The notes beneath the pieces were generated by a model. It saw nothing but the letters and a program-made list of their open reading frames with translations. It had not been told where the DNA came from and made no database searches. Below, piece by piece: positions 24,806 to 49,570 of a stretch of 64,000 nt of DNA (the stretch's first letter is position 1; each line of letters starts with the position of its first letter). A program made the position numbers and the translations under genes. Source of the stretch: the human T2T-CHM13v2.0 reference genome, Homo sapiens; contig CP068257.2 of NCBI GenBank assembly GCA_009914755.4, positions 16,192,001-16,256,000 on the forward strand, in the 5' to 3' direction.

Positions 24806-26260
24806 AAATGTAATATAAGCCACACATGCCATTGAAAACTTTCTAGTAGTATAATTTTTAAAAAAAAAAAGTAAAAAAAGAAACAAGTAGAATTAATTTT
24901 AAGAATGTATTTTTCTTAACCCAAATATCCCAAATGCTATCAGTTTAGCCTGTAATCCATTTAATAAATTATTGAGCTATTTTATAATTATTTCTTTTGC
25001 ACTTTAGTAATCTGGTGTGTATTTTGCACTTAGAGTACATCTGAATTTGGATTAGCCGTATTTCAAATGCTCAGTAGCTGGTTGTGGCTGGGGACTCCCA
25101 TATCGGGCAGTGTAGGCCTAGAGCTGAGAGGCAGTGGGCAGCCATGTCTTCACACAAGACTAGATCTGTACTGTGCTGTGATTTATGCACTGTTACTTTT
25201 TGAGTCTCTAAGCCTAGTGTTTCAATTCCCTGGTTGCATTTGTTAGCAATTTAACATATTTTCATTTCTACCTAAATCAGCCTTAGTTAAGTTTCTGTTG
25301 TTTGCAACTAAGAACCGTATTGTTATAGAAATTTCAATGAGAAGCTTTGTAGGCACAGACATTCAAAGAAATGAGGAGATCTGGGATTGTGTATCTGGCC
25401 TTGTTAGAAATTATGATAGTTTAGATTACTGTTCAGCAAATATTCATTTTCTTTTTCCTCCTCCTGTGGGTAGAATATATTACCCTGCCTCATGATGTTG
25501 GAGTTGACCATGTGACTTGCTTTGGCTAGTAAGATGTCAGTGGATATAATGTGGGCAAAGTGCTGAGATGTGTTTGTGCAATGGTTTCCTGGCCTCTTGT
25601 ACTTCTGCTGTCACCATGAGGAAAATATGCCCCTGTTAGCTGGTGGGTAAAGGAAAATGAAAGGTATGTGAAATAATTTGAAGACCTAGTTAAACTCAAG
25701 CTAGGTTAGCCAACTTCTGTCAATCTGAAGTTAAAAGAAAAAGCATAAGTGATTATATTAAGCCATCTAGTTATGTTATGTAGCATTATTGTTGGAATGA
25801 CTGAAACAGAACTAAAGGTAGCAAAAGTTACAGCTAGTAAACAATGAGTCTCTAACATACGGTATGCAGAGGAGACACAATATATTAATTTATTCACCCT
25901 GGAATGTAGTGCTAACGAAGCAAAGTTTTGAGGAAGCAATTAGCTTGTTAGAGTATAGTAAAATGACTTATATAAGACTTGTAGTAAATAGTATTTATTG
26001 TTAAAATTTCCAAATACTTTAAAGAAATAGATTTATAGTTGTACAATTTGCAGTTGTACTGTTTCCTGCTTAAGGCATTGATTGAAAATCAGTGACTTTT
26101 TTTTTTTTTTTGGCTAAAGAAACATCACATTTCTTTCAGTCACTGGGTTGAGAGAGCCAAAATATACACACAGAAAAACTGAGTCTTTGGTTTGCCAAAA
26201 TTCAATGTCAGTTGAATTTACAGCCTTGCCATGTGTCTGATACAAAGTTTGGGCATTGAT

Positions 26261-26733
26261 GTTATCCTCAGCCAACTAACACAGGAACAGAAAACCAAAT
26301 GCCTCATGTTCTGCCTTGTAAGTGGGAGCTGAACAATGAGAACACATGGACAGAGGGAGGGGAACAATGAACACTGGGGCCTGTGGGTCAGAGGAACAAC
26401 GGGGACAGGGAGAGCATCAGGATAAATAGCTAATGCTTGTGGGGCTTAATAGCTAATGCATGTGGGTGCAGCAAATCACCATGGCACACGTTAACCTATG
26501 TAACAAACCTGCACGTCCTGCACATGTATCCTGGAACTCAAAATCAAATTAAATTAAAAAAATCTATTACTTTGTCTTGTTTAAAAAAATGAGTTACAAG
26601 TTATATACAATAAAATATGCCCTTTTGAATGTGTAGTCCTATGAGTTTTGACAAGCACTCGTGGTTATGTAATGATCACTACTACCATGATCAAGATATA
26701 GAATATTTTTATCACCTCTCAAAAAAAAAAAAT
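26261..26733 (+). mobile_element. Composite L1 insertion: young-type L1 3' UTR end (26261-26565), then about 150 bp of extra sequence, then a poly-A tail
   Basis: '...cagccaactaacacaggaacagaaaaccaaatgcctcatgttctgccttgtaagtgggagctgaacaatgagaacacatggac...gcagcaaatcaccatggcacacgttaacctatgtaacaaacctgcacgtcctgcacatgtatcctggaactcaaaat...aaaaaaa' is followed by non-L1 sequence ending in A12. The whole unit is flanked by a 17-bp TSD 'aaagtttgggca(t/c)tgat' at 26244-26260 and 26734-26750. Confidence 0.8.
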
Positions 26734-29700
26734 AAAGTTTGGGCACTGATCCAGAAGAAATAGAATGCCGAGAATGAAAGTCTTATATGGGAGGAACTTC
26801 AACTCCTCCATGAGTTTTATTGGCAACTGAAGCCACCTTTCTCTTTCGATGATGCTCTTTCCCCTTTGCTTGAAGACTCTTAACAAGCCCTCAAACAGGC
26901 TCATCTAAGAGATTTACCTGACCAGAGACCCTAATTTGTCTTTTGTTCCATCCATACCCTCTTCTTTGTCTCTAAGGCCTTAAATGTTGTCAGATCCCAA
27001 CATGTTCTGGGAGCCAATTTAAAGGCGAATTTGCAAGATGACAGAATAGCCACAAAAAATGGCAAAACTTTGTTAATTTATATCAGACTTGTGGGTTTGT
27101 GTGTATGTGTGTGTATTTTGAATGAGTAGGCCAAAGAGGGAACTGATGAGTTTAGATTAGGCTGATTTTAGCATCATGGGGACAACTCACTGAGATTCTG
27201 GATTCAATGTGCCTCTTCGAGCTGAGAGTAATTCTAATTGTTTGTTTGGTTGACTTGTCTTGGAAACAAAGCCTTACTTTGTGTTTGAATCAGAAACAAC
27301 CAGTGGCATTATTATTCTAAAAAACAACAGATGTTGGAAAAGAAGAGCAAATTGAACCAATTTCTCCTCACTCAAAAGTTTTTTGTAGTAGATATAGATT
27401 GGAAAGATATAGAAAAGTGGAGAAGAAAATAAATTGGGAATGTTCAACAGTGTAAGTGAATAAGATCAGGCATATAATTCATGAAGCAATATTGTTGGTT
27501 TTTCACGCAATGGAATACTCTTAAATCAAATTTAAAATCTGGTAGGATGTTGAAGAGAAAATTTCATTCGTTCATTCATTCATTCATTCAAATGTTCATT
27601 AAATGTCTAATATGTTCACACACAGTATTTTAGGTACTGGAGATATAACAATAAACTAGGGAAATTAAAATTTTCTCATGTAACTTATATTCTAGTGGAG
27701 AAAGAGAATGAACAAATGCATTAAAATATACAGTATTTTAGAAGGTTATCTATGTAATATGAACCCCAAAGTATCTGAGACAGGTCTCGATTTAGCCAAA
27801 GTTAGGCATGCACTTGTGATACAGCCTCAGGAGATCCTGATGACATGTACTCAAGGTTATTGGGGGTACAGCTTGCTTTTATACATTTTAGGGAGAAATA
27901 GTACATCAATCAATACATGTATGATTTACATTGGTTCGACCTGGAAAGGTGGGAAAACTCGGAGCCATGGCTTCCAGGTCATAGGTAGATTTAAAAATTT
28001 TCTGATTGGCAATTGGTTGAAAGAGTTATTATCAATAAAAAGGAATGTCTGGTTTATGATAAGGGATTGTGGAGACCAAGGTTTTATCATGCAGCATGAC
28101 ATCTCCAGGTAGCAGGCTTCAGAGAGAGAATCAATTGTATATATTTCTTACCAGACTTAAGATCTGTGTGGATGTTAATTCTGGTTGGCTCTTCCTGAAT
28201 TCCAAAAGGGAGGAAGAACTAATGAGGCATGTTCGAACCCTGCTTCCCGTCATGGCCTGAACTAGTTTTTCAGGTTAATTTTGGAATGCCCTTGGCCAAG
28301 AGGAGAGGTCTATTCAAATAGTTGGGGGTGGGTCTTAGAATTTTATTTTTGTTTACAGTAAGAAGAAAATAAATCTGCTTAAATCAGGATTGCCAGGGTG
28401 TAGAAGAGTACAATTTAAAAAATGGTTGTCAGGGATGATGTCAATGAGAATGTCACATTTGAGTAATAGCCTGAAAGGAGGCATTAAAGTAGCCTTGTGC
28501 ATCTCCAAGGGAAGACTATTCTAGGCAGAAAGGACCAGGGGAAAGATTGGGACCTTAACTGGCCCCATGGAGTGGAGTGAACCAGGGTGATACTAGTAGG
28601 AGATGAAGTCAGAGGTATAGAGTGGAGCCTGATTGGATTATTTCCCACAAAGATGAAAGATAGAGAATTATAAGCAGTGGAAAATTAGAAACCAACATTG
28701 AAGTTAGACACGGTCAGAAGTCCTTCATCAGCAAGTGGAAGTGGATTCCACTAATATCCAGGATTAGGTCCACGTCAATTGTGAAGGCAGAAATAAGTTG
28801 CATAAATAACTTTATGAACACCCACCTTGCCTCCTCCTGCTGCCACTGTGCTCTTGTGGGGGAATTTCTTCATATCAGTTGACTGAAGAGGAAAACATTT
28901 GATTCTTTTAAAAGGATGGCTCTGCATATTTGTGTACCAACCAGAAATAGATTGCTGAGGCATTACTTTCACCCTCAGGAGTGGTCCTGAAGGACAGTCA
29001 AAATGGAAATTCTCCCAGTGAAAAGAAATGTAAACAATTTATCTTATTGTCCACTTTGTCAGTTAGTAGAAAGCCCCAGGTAGGTATCTGTACTGATTGA
29101 TGGGCAGTGGTTAATGGTATAATCAGATTGTCAGGGAACTAAAAGAAGCAGAATTGTAAGATTGATCACAAAGTGTTTGGGGAAGACACTTACGTATGGA
29201 CCCCTCTGAATGGGGTTTCTAAGTGTGACTAAATATAGCCTATGCAACTGACCAACAAAAGGCTACAGTGAATGAGGGTTTTAATTATCAGGTGGACAAG
29301 ATGACTCACTATTTATGTCAGTCGGCTTTTTTCTGATTTCCTTAGTACTTGATTAAAGTGGATATGGTGACAGACATTAACACATGGACTTTTTCTAAAA
29401 AATCTGACCTTGTGTACTTTCCAGAAACAGCAATTAACCCTGAGCTTGTAATACAATACCATGCCCTAGGGAGGGCAGCGAGACTTCTATCAAGGAGGAG
29501 GCTATGACACTTTAGATTTTAATTTGCCTTTCTTCCTAATTTTGCTTCAGTACCACTATACATGGAATGACTATTTTATACACAGTTATGATATTCCACC
29601 CAGCCTTTCTCTGATCAAGGAAGTCTATTTTACAGTGAAAAAAAAAGTGAGGCAAAGGGTGATTGACAAGTCTAAGATACCCAAGGCTCAGAAACAGCTA

Positions 29701-34384: not shown

Positions 34385-36279
34385 TTTATATTTTAAAAAA
34401 CCCATCATCTGAGCCCAAAAACTTCTTGAACTGATAAGCAACTTCAGCAAAATCTCAGGATATAACATCAATGTGTAAAAATCACAAGCATTCCTTTACA
34501 CCAACAATTGGCAAGCAGAGAGCCAAATCATGAATGAACTCCCATTCATAATCTCTACAACGAAAAACAGTATCTAAGGAATACAGCTAACAAGGGATGT
34601 GAAGGACCTCTTCAAGAAGAACTACATACAACTGCTCAAGGAAATAAGAGAGGACAAAAACAAATGGGAAAACATTCCATCCTCATGGACAGGAAGAATC
34701 AGTATCGTGAAAATGGTTATACTGCCCAAAGTAATTTATAGATTCAATGCCATTCCCATCAAACTATCATTGGCATTCTTCATAGAGTTAGAAAAAACTA
34801 TTTAAAACTTCATATGGAATCAGAGAAGACCCCATATAGCCAAGAGAGTCCTAAGCAAAAAGAACAAAGCTGGAGGAATCATGCTACCTGACTTCAAACT
34901 ATACTGCAGGGCTACAGTAACCAAAACAGCATGGTACTGGTACCAAAACAGACTTATAGACCAATGGAACAGAACAGAGACCTCAGAAATAACACTGCAC
35001 ATCTACAACCATCTGATCTTTGACAAACCTGACAAAAACAAGCAATGGGGAAAGGATCTCCTATTCAGTAAATGGTGCTGGGAAGACTGGCTAGCCATAT
35101 GCAGAAAACTGAAACTGGACCCCTTCCTTACATATTATACAAAAATTAACTCAAGATGGATTAAAGACTTAAAATCCAAAATCATAAAACCCTAAAAGAA
35201 AACCCAGGCAATACCATTCAGGACATAGGCATGGGCAAAGACTTCATGACAAAAATGCCAAAAGCAATTGCGGCAAAAGCCAAAAATGACAAATGGACCT
35301 AATTAAACTAAAGAGCTTCTGTACAGCAAAAGAAACTATCATCAGAGTGAACAGGCTATCAACAGAGTGGGAGAAAATTTTTGCAATCTATCCATCTGAC
35401 AAAGGGCTAATATCCAGAATTTACAAGGAACTTAAACATATTTATAAGAAAAAAACAACCCCATCAAAAAGTGGATAAAGGATACGAACAAACATTCTCA
35501 AAATAAGACATTTACGTGGCTGACAAACATATGAAAAAAGCTCAATATCATGATCATCAGAGAAATGAAAATCAAAACTACAATGGAATACTATCTCATG
35601 CCAGTCAGAATGGCGATTACTAAAGAGTCAGGAAACAATAGATGCTGGCGAGGCTGTGGAGAAATAGGAATGCTTTTACACTGTTGGTGGGAATGTAAAT
35701 TAATTCAATCATTGTGGAAGACAGTATGGCAATTCCTCAAGGATCTAGAACCAGAAATACCATTTGACCCAGCAATCCCATTATTGGGTATATACCCAAA
35801 GGTGTATAAATCATTCTACTATAAAGATACATGCACAAGTATGTTTATTGCAGCACCATTTACAGTAGCAAAGACATGGAACCAACCCAAATGCCCATCA
35901 ATGATAGACTGGATAAAGAAAATGTGGTACATATACATCATGGAATACTACGCAGCCATAAAAAGAAATGAGATCGTGTCCTTTGCAGGGACATGGATGA
36001 AGCTGGAAGCCGTCATCCTCAGCAGACTAACACAGGAACAGAAAACCAAACACCGCATGTTCTCACTCATAAGTGGGAGTCAAACATTGAGAACACATGT
36101 ACACAGAGAGGGGAACAACATGCACTAGGGTCTACTGGGGGGTGGGGGGTGAGGGAAGAGAACTCAGAGGATGGGTCAATAGGTGCAGCAAACCACCATG
36201 GCACACGTATACCTATGTAACAAACCTGCACATTCTGCGCATGTATCCTTTTTTTTTCTTTAGAAATTAAAAAAAAAGA
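34385..36279 (+). mobile_element. 5'-truncated primate L1 (L1P-type): 3' half of ORF2 plus 3' UTR
   Basis: Nucleotide match to L1 ORF2 ('...caacttcagcaaaatctcaggatataacatcaatgtgtaaaaatcacaagcattcctttacaccaacaa...atggtgctgggaagactggctagccatatgcagaaaactgaaactggaccccttcc...gtaacaaacctgcacattctgcgcatgtatcc'). The 192-aa ORF at 35550-36128 is the ORF2p C-terminus ('...MEYYAAIKRNEIVSFAGTWMKLEAVILSRLTQEQKTKHRMFSLISGS...'). Confidence 0.92.
35550..36128 (+). pseudogene. L1 ORF2p C-terminal remnant, not a cellular gene
   Basis: Recognisable ORF2p C-terminal domain sequence. There are in-frame stops upstream in the same element. Confidence 0.85.
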
Positions 36280-36844
36280 AGGTAAAATGGAGCATAGAGG
36301 TGAAGAAGTAAATATGTTACAAAAGGCCCAGTTTGCTAGTTGAGTAACCAGGCTATGGAAAGCCTTGGAAGAGATTTCAACCTGGTAATTCTACCATCGA
36401 ACAGAATTTTAGATGTCTCATTGTGGATGTTCTGTGGAGGAAGCATCAAAGGAGGGAAAAGTTGAGAGACAGAGAGTCGTTAGGAGGCTATTTCAGTAGT
36501 CAAGGTAAGAAAGAATGGAATCCTAATTAGGCAGTAGTAGTAGGAATGAGGAGAAAAAAAGGATTACAGAACCATGTAGGAGGAATAATTAGTGAATGAA
36601 AAGATGTGGGTAGAAGGGGAGAAAGGAATTTAGAATGACTACAAGATTTTTGCTTTAGGAAACTAGGTGGATGATGGCACCATTAATTGTCATTATAAAT
36701 GCAAGAGTGGGAGGAGCAGGTGGGATGGGGATGGAGGAGTGGGAGAAATATTAGCTCAGTTGGAACATGTTGAGTTTGAAGTGTCTCTGTAGAAATACTT
36801 AGTAGGCAATTAGATATAAAACTCTTAATCTTGTGATTAAGGTG

Positions 36845-45822: not shown

Positions 45823-46682
45823 TTAAGTGTTAATGCAAACAGGGAGTAATTGGAATTCTCAAACGTTAATGAGAGTTCAAATTGGTAAAACCACTTCAAA
45901 AAATTGTGTGGCAATATCTACTCTATAGCTAAACACATAATCCTATGATTTAGTAGTACTATTCCTAGGTGTATTACTAACAGAAATACAAACATATGCA
46001 TACCAAAAGGCATGCATAAGAATGTTCTTAGTATCTTTGTTTACAATAGCCTTAAACTGGAAACAATTAAAATGTCCACCAGCAGTAGAATGGGTAAATA
46101 CATTTTATACAGGGGAAATCCACAGAGCAATAAAAATGAATAAGCTATTGCCGTGTGCAACACTGAGGGATGAGTCTCGCATATGTAATTTGAGAGAAAA
46201 AACCCAGATCCAAAAAGCACAGTGTGTGATACCACTTACATGAAGTTAAAAAACTAGTAAAGTTGATGAATAATGATGGAAGTCAGCATAGTAAGTTCTT
46301 TTGGGGTGCGGCTGGGAGACTGTTCGCATTCTACTTCCTGACCTGTGGCAGTGACAAGGGTAGATTTCACACGGTGAACATTCATGAAGCTGTACATTCA
46401 TAATCTGTGTGCTTTTCTGTTTGTACGTGATACATCGGTAAAAAGGTTACTTAAAGAGAAATAGAGTTTCAAGAGGGAATGCATGTATTGGACTGGGTAC
46501 TTAATTATATTTGAATTTGTTTCCGAATAAAATTTCAAGATAATTAAAACTGAGATTTTTTCTTTTCCGCATTTTTTTCTTAATGTTGCATGGTCTTTAC
46601 CCTTTCAGTCAGTGGCATCTGGTATTTAAGAGGAAAAACAGATTCAGCCAAGCAAAGAAGACAGTTTATTATTTGGAAATCA

Positions 46683-49174: not shown

Positions 49175-49234
49175 TATGAGGTAAATATTATCAAGAACAC
49201 TTCTTCACTTAGAAATATTAAAAATTATTAGGTG

Positions 49235-49477
49235 TCTGCATGTTCTCATAAGTGGGAGTTGAACAATGAGAACACATGGACACCGGGAGAAGAGCATCAC
49301 ACACGGGGGGCCTGTTAGGGGGTCAGGAGCTAGGGGAGGGATAGCATTAGGGGAAATACCTAATGTAGATGACGGGTTGATGGGTGCAACAAACCACCAT
49401 GGCATGTGTAGACCTGTATAACAAACCTGCACATTCTGCACATGTATCCCAGAACTTAAAGTATAATAAAAAAAAAA
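49235..49477 (+). mobile_element. L1 3' end fragment (young-type L1P 3' UTR) with poly-A
   Basis: 'ctgcatgttctcataagtgggagttgaacaatgagaacacatggacaccgggagaagagcatcacacacggggggcctgttagggggtcaggagctaggggagggatagcattaggggaaatacctaatgtagatgacgggttgatgggtgcaacaaaccaccatggcatgtgtagacctgtataacaaacctgcacattctgcacatgtatcccagaacttaaagtataataaaaaaaa'. A TSD of about 15 bp 'aaaattattaggtgt' sits at 49220-49234 and 49475-49489. Confidence 0.95.
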
Positions 49478-49570
49478 TTATTAGGTGTCAACGATATACC
49501 AGGCCCCATGTAAGGTACTGGTGGTGTGTTACATACAGATACAGGAGCCAGTCATTTCTGTTTGTCTTTT

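What the first reader, a model, noticed from the sequence alone, without database searches (positions are those of the whole stretch)
26244..26750. L1 3'-transduction-like composite insertion with a 17-bp TSD
A 17-bp duplication 'aaagtttgggca(t/c)tgat' (26244-26260 and 26734-26750) brackets one unit. The unit is a young-type L1 3' UTR end (26261-26565, ending in its own short A-run 'aaattaaaaaaa'), then about 150 bp of non-L1 sequence (26566-26718), then a clean A12 tail. The architecture (L1 end, weak poly-A, extra sequence, strong poly-A, TSD) is the signature of read-through transcription from a source L1 into its 3' flank. The ~150-bp tag, if unique, identifies the progenitor locus. The tag looks like an old L1M tail ('...ccatgatcaagatatagaatatttttatcacctctc'), so the source L1 probably sat in an older L1.
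Basis: partly seen in the sequence, partly recalled or inferred. Interest (0 to 1): 0.55.

Follow-up and report, generated by a model that had tools for sequence, protein, structure and literature searches.

The report
Old L1 insertion carrying flanking DNA
This is an ordinary, dead fragment of a primate L1 jumping gene that took about 158 bases of its old neighbourhood with it when it copied itself; that kind of event is common and well described.

Summary
A 17-nt direct repeat (16/17) at 26244-26260 and 26734-26750 brackets one retrotransposed unit. The unit has three parts:
- a 5'-truncated L1PA-type 3' end (26261-26562), made of the last 23 ORF2 codons, the 3' UTR, two ATTAAA signals and an A7 run;
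- 158 nt of other sequence (26563-26720);
- a pure A12 tail (26721-32).

The extra 158 nt is an old L1M 3' end, but on the opposite strand. A profile of five independent L1M 3' ends hits 26721->26599 on the minus strand (E=1.2e-12). The decayed L1M tail abuts the L1PA-type tail, so the two elements lie tail-to-tail. The extra sequence is therefore not a longer L1 UTR.

The best explanation is a partnered L1 3' transduction (confidence 0.8).

The nested-insertion rival fails on three counts. The L1 piece alone has no duplication. The 17-mer is far too well kept for an L1M-aged event (P about 0.002-0.007). The nick site would also be poor.

Two weaknesses remain. No poly(A) signal lies within 100 nt of the A12 tail. 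The source locus could not be searched, because no primate genome was available.

This is a textbook structure of low interest.

The parts
26244..26260 (+). Target-site duplication, 5' copy (AAAGTTTGGGCATTGAT). It may start at 26242, giving a 19-nt version.
26261..26562 (+). 5'-truncated L1PA-type 3' end (302 nt): the end of ORF2, the 3' UTR, the element's own poly(A) signals and an A7 run
   Evidence: blastn to three other L1 3' ends in the window; alignment A1 fixes both boundaries
26261..26332 (+). Last 23 codons of L1 ORF2 plus the stop codon (VILSQLTQEQKTKCLMFCLVSGS*)
   Evidence: ORF listing, compared with AVILSRLTQEQKTKHRMFSLISGS from the L1 at 35.4-36.1 kb
26548..26562 (+). The L1's own 3' terminus: two overlapping ATTAAA signals (26548, 26553) and an A7 run (26556-26562). 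This is the bypassed poly(A) site.
26563..26720 (+). Transduced passenger sequence (158 nt), carried in the same transcript as the L1
   Evidence: no match elsewhere in the window; not contiguous with the L1 3' UTR
26563..26720 (-). Identity of the passenger: the 3' end of an old L1M-type LINE-1, read on the minus strand. The 3' UTR runs from 26720 down to about 26583. The decayed A-rich tail AAACAAGACAAAGTAATAGA runs from 26582 down to 26563 and abuts the L1PA-type tail.
   Evidence: nhmmer profile of five independent copies hits 26721->26599 on the minus strand, E=1.2e-12; the sense strand was fixed by ORF2 homology upstream and an A13 tail in the reference copies; about 78% identity to the family consensus
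26721..26732 (+). Pure A12 tail of the composite insertion. One T (26733) separates it from the duplication.
26734..26750 (+). Target-site duplication, 3' copy (AAAGTTTGGGCACTGAT)

Best explanation
This is a partnered L1 3' transduction.

Inferred history:
- At some other locus, an L1PA-type element sat tail-to-tail with the 3' end of a much older L1M on the opposite strand.
- A transcript of that L1 ran through the element's own ATTAAA/A7 site and continued 158 nt into the antisense L1M.
- It acquired, or already ended in, an A tract.
- The L1 machinery nicked the bottom strand at the present site (5'-CTTT/GT, or 5'-TTGT/AT if the duplication is 19 nt). It primed on the A tail and copied the passenger first and then 302 nt of L1 before stopping (5' truncation).
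- Repair of the staggered breaks produced the 17-nt duplication.

The product has no promoter and no intact ORF, so it was dead on arrival.

Shown directly: the anatomy, the identity and orientation of each piece, and the statistical reality of the duplication. Inferred: the read-through, the source arrangement and the time of the event.
For: - A 16/17 duplication sits at exactly the two outer junctions, with a chance of about 2e-7.
- L1 homology starts at 26261 and ends at 26562. That is the same end point as two other L1PA-type copies, and it carries the element's own ATTAAA signals and A7 run.
- The next 158 nt are a different, much older element on the other strand (E=1.2e-12). As I recall, L1M families had stopped moving before the L1PA families became active, so this piece should only have moved as a passenger. 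That timing is my own knowledge, not a tool result.
- A pure A12 tail lies directly before the 3' duplication.
- The L1 piece on its own has no duplication of 6 nt or more.
- Published figures fit. About 25% of L1 insertions carry a 3' transduction. 72% of partnered ones show two poly(A) tracts. 71% of those seen by long reads are under 100 nt (PMC13009371).
Against: - No recognised poly(A) hexamer lies within 100 nt upstream of the A12 tail. The nearest is AATAAA at 26609, 106 nt away. In the cited data, 79% of transduction end points have a signal 10-30 nt upstream.
- The nick site CTTT/G is only a partial match to the TTTT/A preference.
- The source locus was not found, and could not have been. 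Exact 21-mer scans of the metagenome and prokaryote-genome collections were empty, and no primate genome was available.
- With only 302 nt of L1 retained, I cannot show that the parent RNA was a full-length L1 transcript.
Confidence: 0.8

Rival explanations
1. Retrocopy of a non-L1 host transcript, or a template-switch chimera. In the first form, a cellular RNA (for example a long 3' UTR, intron or lncRNA) happened to contain an L1PA-type fragment followed by an antisense L1M, and the L1 machinery copied it in trans with 5' truncation. In the second form, reverse transcriptase began on an unrelated A-tailed RNA holding the antisense L1M and jumped onto the poly(A) end of an L1 RNA.
For: The final structure would be identical: one duplication, one terminal A tail and an internal A-run. 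Only 302 nt of L1 are present, so nothing shows that the RNA began at an L1 promoter. The lack of a poly(A) signal before A12 fits no model well, so it does not favour read-through specifically.
Against: The L1 machinery strongly prefers its own RNA, and 3' transduction is frequent (about 25% of insertions). In the template-switch chimeras I know of, L1 is usually the 3' partner rather than the 5' partner. Both points rest partly on my own knowledge and were not tested here. The tail-to-tail junction, with the decayed L1M tail directly against the L1 A-run, looks like a normal genomic L1 insertion junction.
Confidence: 0.12
2. Nested insertions at this site. The 17-nt duplication belongs to an ancient L1M insertion on the minus strand (26733->26563). 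An L1PA-type fragment later landed exactly between the L1M tail and its 3' duplication.
For: On the minus strand the order is 17-mer, T12, L1M 3' UTR, decayed A-rich tail, [L1 piece], 17-mer. That is the layout an L1M with its own duplication would have. The family has a short T-run where the T12 lies.
Against: - The L1M piece is only about 78% identical to its family consensus. A duplication of that age should differ at about 35-40% of sites, and P(<=1 mismatch in 17) is then 0.002-0.007.
- The L1 piece would have no duplication of its own.
- Its nick site would be AGA/AT, with no T's to prime on.
- The L1M nick site would be TGAT/, which is worse than CTTT/G.
- The landing point would have to coincide with the tail/duplication border to the base.
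- A pure 12-nt homopolymer would have to have grown from a T-run of about 6 nt.
Confidence: 0.03
3. The 17-mer pair is a coincidence, and the pieces are unrelated neighbouring repeat fragments.
For: None beyond the general AT-richness of the region.
Against: The chance is about 2e-7 at the fixed junctions. The repeat is not low-complexity. It sits exactly at the L1 5' truncation point and one base after the A12 tail.
Confidence: 0.01

Closest known systems
Partnered L1 3' transduction (described by Moran 1999, Goodier 2000 and Pickeral 2000; recent long-read survey PMC13009371)
   Same: It has an L1 3' end with its own bypassed poly(A) site and short A-run, downstream genomic sequence, a second A tail, one duplication around the whole unit, 5' truncation, and a short passenger (158 nt).
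   Different: No poly(A) signal lies 10-30 nt before the second tail, as in about 21% of end points in PMC13009371. The passenger is itself an old repeat in the opposite orientation. The event looks old rather than recent or somatic. The source is not identified.
Plain 5'-truncated L1PA-type insertion, such as the one at 49236-49471 in this window
   Same: It has the same L1 3' end, the same type of duplication (16-17 nt) and an A tail.
   Different: That copy ends at its own AATAAA and A-run and is followed directly by its duplication. The finding has 158 nt of foreign sequence and a second tail in between.
Bipartite chimeric retrocopies made by L1 reverse-transcriptase template switching (Buzdin et al.; cited from my own knowledge)
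   Same: Two unrelated RNA-derived pieces sit inside one duplication with one terminal A tail.
   Different: In those chimeras L1 or Alu is usually the 3' partner and a small RNA or mRNA the 5' partner. Here L1 is the 5' partner, and its junction looks like a genomic insertion junction.

Membership tests
L1 3' transduction (partnered) | An L1 3' end in sense orientation that runs to the element's normal terminus, with its own poly(A) signal and A-run | tested here: met
   Aligns from 26261 to 26562 with two other L1PA-type copies and ends where they end. ATTAAA x2 and A7 are present. The ORF2 C-terminus and stop codon are present.
L1 3' transduction (partnered) | Sequence directly after the L1 terminus that is not part of the L1 consensus | tested here: met
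   The tag has no match to any other L1 3' end in the window. It is an L1M 3' end on the opposite strand (E=1.2e-12).
L1 3' transduction (partnered) | A second poly(A) tail at the end of the extra sequence | tested here: met
   Pure A12 at 26721-26732.
L1 3' transduction (partnered) | One target-site duplication flanks the composite, and none flanks the L1 piece alone | tested here: met
   16/17 at the outer junctions. No anchored match of 6 nt or more around the L1 piece alone.
L1 3' transduction (partnered) | A poly(A) signal 10-30 nt upstream of the second tail | tested here: not met
   None of 15 hexamer variants lies within 100 nt. The nearest is AATAAA at 26609. This feature is usual but not defining: 79% of end points have one in PMC13009371.
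L1 3' transduction (partnered) | An L1 endonuclease-type nick site (TTTT/A) at the 5' edge of the duplication | tested here: inconclusive
   The bottom strand reads 5'-CTTT/GT (17-nt duplication) or 5'-TTGT/AT (19-nt duplication). This is a partial match, read directly.
L1 3' transduction (partnered) | The passenger sequence lies directly 3' of an L1, ideally full-length, at a source locus | not testable with these tools
   No primate genome is available. Exact 21-mer scans of the metagenome and prokaryote-genome collections were empty, and exact-protein look-ups were empty.
L1 3' transduction (partnered) | An empty site with a single copy of the 17-mer in an outgroup species | not testable with these tools
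   No outgroup genomes are available. There is only a weak hint: a 62%-identical paralogous stretch (42206-42066) aligns across the reconstructed empty site.
L1M-type LINE-1 3' end (identity of the passenger) | Homology to independent copies of a repeat that lies 3' of L1 ORF2 and ends in a poly(A) tail | tested here: met
   Five contigs were found with a consensus pattern. Three have L1 ORF2 C-terminal homology 200-300 nt upstream on the same strand. Two end in A13. Their profile hits the tag at E=1.2e-12 on the minus strand. The subfamily was not assigned, because no repeat library was available.
Template-switch chimeric retrocopy | The two parts derive from RNAs of two different, unlinked loci | not testable with these tools
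   This needs a genome search for the tag's source.

The most novel reading that the evidence does not exclude
The 3' end of the mobilised RNA was not made by signal-dependent polyadenylation. The passenger stops exactly where the antisense L1M family has a short internal A-run (the family reads ...ATCACTCAAAAAATTCCC), and no poly(A) signal precedes it. Reverse transcription may therefore have been primed on an internal genomic A-tract of a longer read-through RNA. That would make this an instance of internal-A-tract priming in L1 3' transduction.
Probability: 0.15. Interest if true: 0.25.

Novelty: already known. Interest (0 to 1): 0.1.

Why it matters
It matters little beyond annotation. Once a genome search is run, the passenger can serve as a fingerprint to link this dead copy to its parent L1. 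It is about 20% diverged from its family consensus, so it should be distinctive. The locus also shows that a 'tag' made of an old repeat in the opposite orientation can be misread as a tail. The lack of a poly(A) signal before the second tail is a small point of interest for how transduction end points are set.

Tried and rejected
- **Long UTR variant:** rejected. Two other L1PA-type copies end at the same point, and the tag matches neither.
- **Source inside the window:** rejected. The tag has no second copy in the 64 kb.
- **Finding this locus or its source through called ORFs:** three exact-protein look-ups were empty (a 61-aa and a 44-aa ORF over the tag or flank, and a 192-aa L1 ORF as a control). 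I take this to mean this genome is probably not gene-called in that collection. For that reason I did not spend the costly homology searches.
- **Tag-specific 21-mer scans:** the metagenome and prokaryote-genome collections gave no hits.
- **L1M consensus pattern:** the prokaryote-genome and viral collections gave no hits. Only the metagenome scan gave copies.
- **Pfam on two degraded ORF2-like translations from the reference contigs:** no hit. I replaced this with tblastn using the window's own L1 ORF2 C-terminus.
- **Rfam on 25500-27500:** only two matches far below the gathering scores, which I treat as chance.
- **Nested-insertion model:** considered seriously once the L1M orientation was known, then rejected on duplication age, the missing L1 duplication and the nick sites.
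- **The 14/17 similarity between 26554-26570 and 26581-26597 (family D5):** considered as a possible duplication. I judged it an A-run coincidence, because one copy includes L1-derived bases.
Full report
**Observation**

The sequence is as described. The 17-mer AAAGTTTGGGCATTGAT (26244-26260) recurs as AAAGTTTGGGCACTGAT (26734-26750), matching 16/17.

- For two fixed junctions with +-5 nt of slack, the analytic chance of at least 16/17 is about 2e-7.
- Of 200,000 random 60-mer pairs drawn from the window, 34 reached 16/17 or better. Random pairs can include Alu/Alu and poly-A pairs, which would raise this count; I did not inspect the 34.
- Window-wide there are only 23 direct repeats of that quality that are not low-complexity at spacing 100-2000. 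Most look like Alu-internal pairs or duplications around other insertions, including an L1 at 49.2 kb.

The repeat is therefore real and has the character of a target-site duplication.

**Anatomy**

- **L1 piece.** blastn against the rest of the window shows that 26261-26565 is homologous to three other L1 3' ends: 36012-36249, 49249-49483 and 62196-61897. A three-way alignment fixes the boundaries. L1 homology starts at GTTATCCTCAGC (26261) and ends at ...TATCCTGGAACTCAAAATCAAATTAAATTAAAAAAA (26562), which is the same terminus as the 49.2-kb copy.
- **Coding remnant.** The piece begins with the last 23 codons of ORF2 plus the stop (VILSQLTQEQKTKCLMFCLVSGS*). Compare AVILSRLTQEQKTKHRMFSLISGS from the L1 at 35.4-36.1 kb.
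- **L1 terminus.** Two overlapping ATTAAA hexamers (26548, 26553) and an A7 run (26556-26562) form the element's own terminus.
- **Passenger and tail.** The extra sequence is 26563-26720 (158 nt). A12 is 26721-26732, and one T (26733) precedes the 3' duplication.

**What the extra sequence is**

The tag has no second copy in the window. From memory, its reverse complement looked like the 3' end of an old L1M, so I tested that.

1. A 23-nt pattern from the remembered consensus (TTGTCAAAACTCATYRAACTGTA) found five metagenome contigs, L001-L005.
2. These share long-range similarity with each other and with the reverse complement of the tag.
3. In three of them, tblastn with the window's own L1 ORF2 C-terminus finds ORF2 homology 200-300 nt upstream on the same strand. 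L001 and L005 end in A13. Together these fix the sense strand of the family.
4. An nhmmer profile built from the five copies alone has its best hit in the window at 26721->26599 on the minus strand, E=1.2e-12.
5. The tag is about 78% identical to the family consensus, with about 10% gap columns, so it is an old copy.

On the minus strand the L1M 3' UTR runs from 26720 down to about 26583. A decayed A-rich tail (AAACAAGACAAAGTAATAGA, 26582->26563) follows it and directly abuts the complement of the L1 A7 run.

The two elements therefore lie tail-to-tail inside one duplication.

**Mechanism**

As I recall, L1M families had stopped moving before the L1PA families became active, so the L1M piece should only have moved as a passenger. 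That timing is my own knowledge and was not tested here.

The simplest account is a partnered 3' transduction. A transcript from an L1PA-type element at another locus read through its ATTAAA/A7 site and 158 nt into an adjacent antisense L1M. It was then reverse transcribed at a CTTT/G nick here and 5'-truncated after 302 nt of L1.

Published figures fit this account (PMC13009371):
- about 25% of L1 insertions carry a transduction;
- 72% of partnered ones have two A tracts;
- most transductions are short.

**Weak points**

- None of 15 poly(A) hexamer variants lies within 100 nt upstream of A12. The nearest is AATAAA at 26609. In the cited data, 79% of end points have a signal, so this case belongs to the minority.
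- The passenger ends exactly where the antisense L1M family has a short A-run. Part of A12 may therefore be templated, and priming on an internal A-tract cannot be excluded.
- The nick site matches the TTTT/A preference only partly.

**Rivals**

- **Nested insertions.** Once the L1M orientation was known, I had to consider that the 17-mer pair belongs to an ancient minus-strand L1M and that the L1 piece landed later between the L1M tail and its duplication. I reject this for five reasons. A duplication as old as a 78%-identical L1M should differ at about 35-40% of sites, which gives P(<=1 mismatch in 17) of 0.002-0.007. The L1 piece alone has no duplication of 6 nt or more. Its nick site would lack T's. 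The L1M nick site (TGAT/) would be worse than the composite's. The landing point would have to coincide with the border to the base.
- **Host transcript or template switch.** A trans-mobilised host transcript or a template-switch chimera would give the same final structure. Neither can be excluded without the source locus. Both are less likely a priori.
- **Chance.** Excluded.

**What could not be done**

No primate genome was available. These attempts were all empty:
- tag-specific 21-mer scans of the metagenome and prokaryote-genome collections;
- the family pattern in the genome and viral collections;
- three exact-protein look-ups.

Pfam found nothing in the degraded ORF2 translations. Rfam found only sub-threshold noise. 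A weak paralogous stretch (42206-42066, 62% identity, E=2e-6) aligns across the reconstructed empty site. That is only a hint that the 17-mer is ancestral single-copy sequence.

**Verdict**

- This is a textbook, dead, probably old L1 3' transduction. It is a known kind of event and of low interest.

Noticed in passing
window 49219-49488: A plain 5'-truncated L1PA-type insertion (about 49236-49471) ends at its own AATAAA and A-run. It is flanked by a 16/17 duplication, TAAAAATTATTAGGTGT, at 49219-49235 and 49472-49488. It is a useful internal control for what a non-transducing insertion looks like.
   Followed up: partly
window 26420-26465: An imperfect 23-nt tandem repeat lies inside the L1 3' UTR (GGATAAATAGCTAATGCTTGTGG / GGCTTAATAGCTAATGCATGTGG, 87%). 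The two other L1PA-type copies in the window lack 12-29 nt here. It may be a subfamily feature or a local duplication.
   Followed up: no
window 36240-36290: The long L1 that ends near 36249 loses homology just before the usual terminus. It continues as TTTTTTTTTCTTTAGAAATTAAAAAAAAAG instead of the normal ...CAGAACTTAAAGTATAATAAA end.
   Followed up: no
window 22049-21898 (-), 46337-46461 (+), 10018-9955 (-): There are further weak hits of the L1M 3'-end profile (E=2e-4, 1e-3 and 0.012). They are probably other old L1M 3' ends.
   Followed up: no
window 26097-26112: A pure T16 run lies about 130 nt upstream of the insertion. The stretch between it and the insertion site (26129-26260), continuing at 26751-26760, is weakly similar (62%) to 42206-42066 on the other strand. 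The composite may therefore have landed inside an older repeat.
   Followed up: partly
window 774/1089, 24475/24801, 32028/32352: Three more 16/17 direct repeats that are not low-complexity lie 315-326 nt apart. That spacing fits duplications around Alu-sized insertions.
   Followed up: no
L001 1000-1160 and L005 1850-2010: Two metagenome contigs share an identical L1M 3' half and downstream flank but differ upstream of the search pattern. They are either chimeric assemblies or a recent duplication in the host genome.
   Followed up: no
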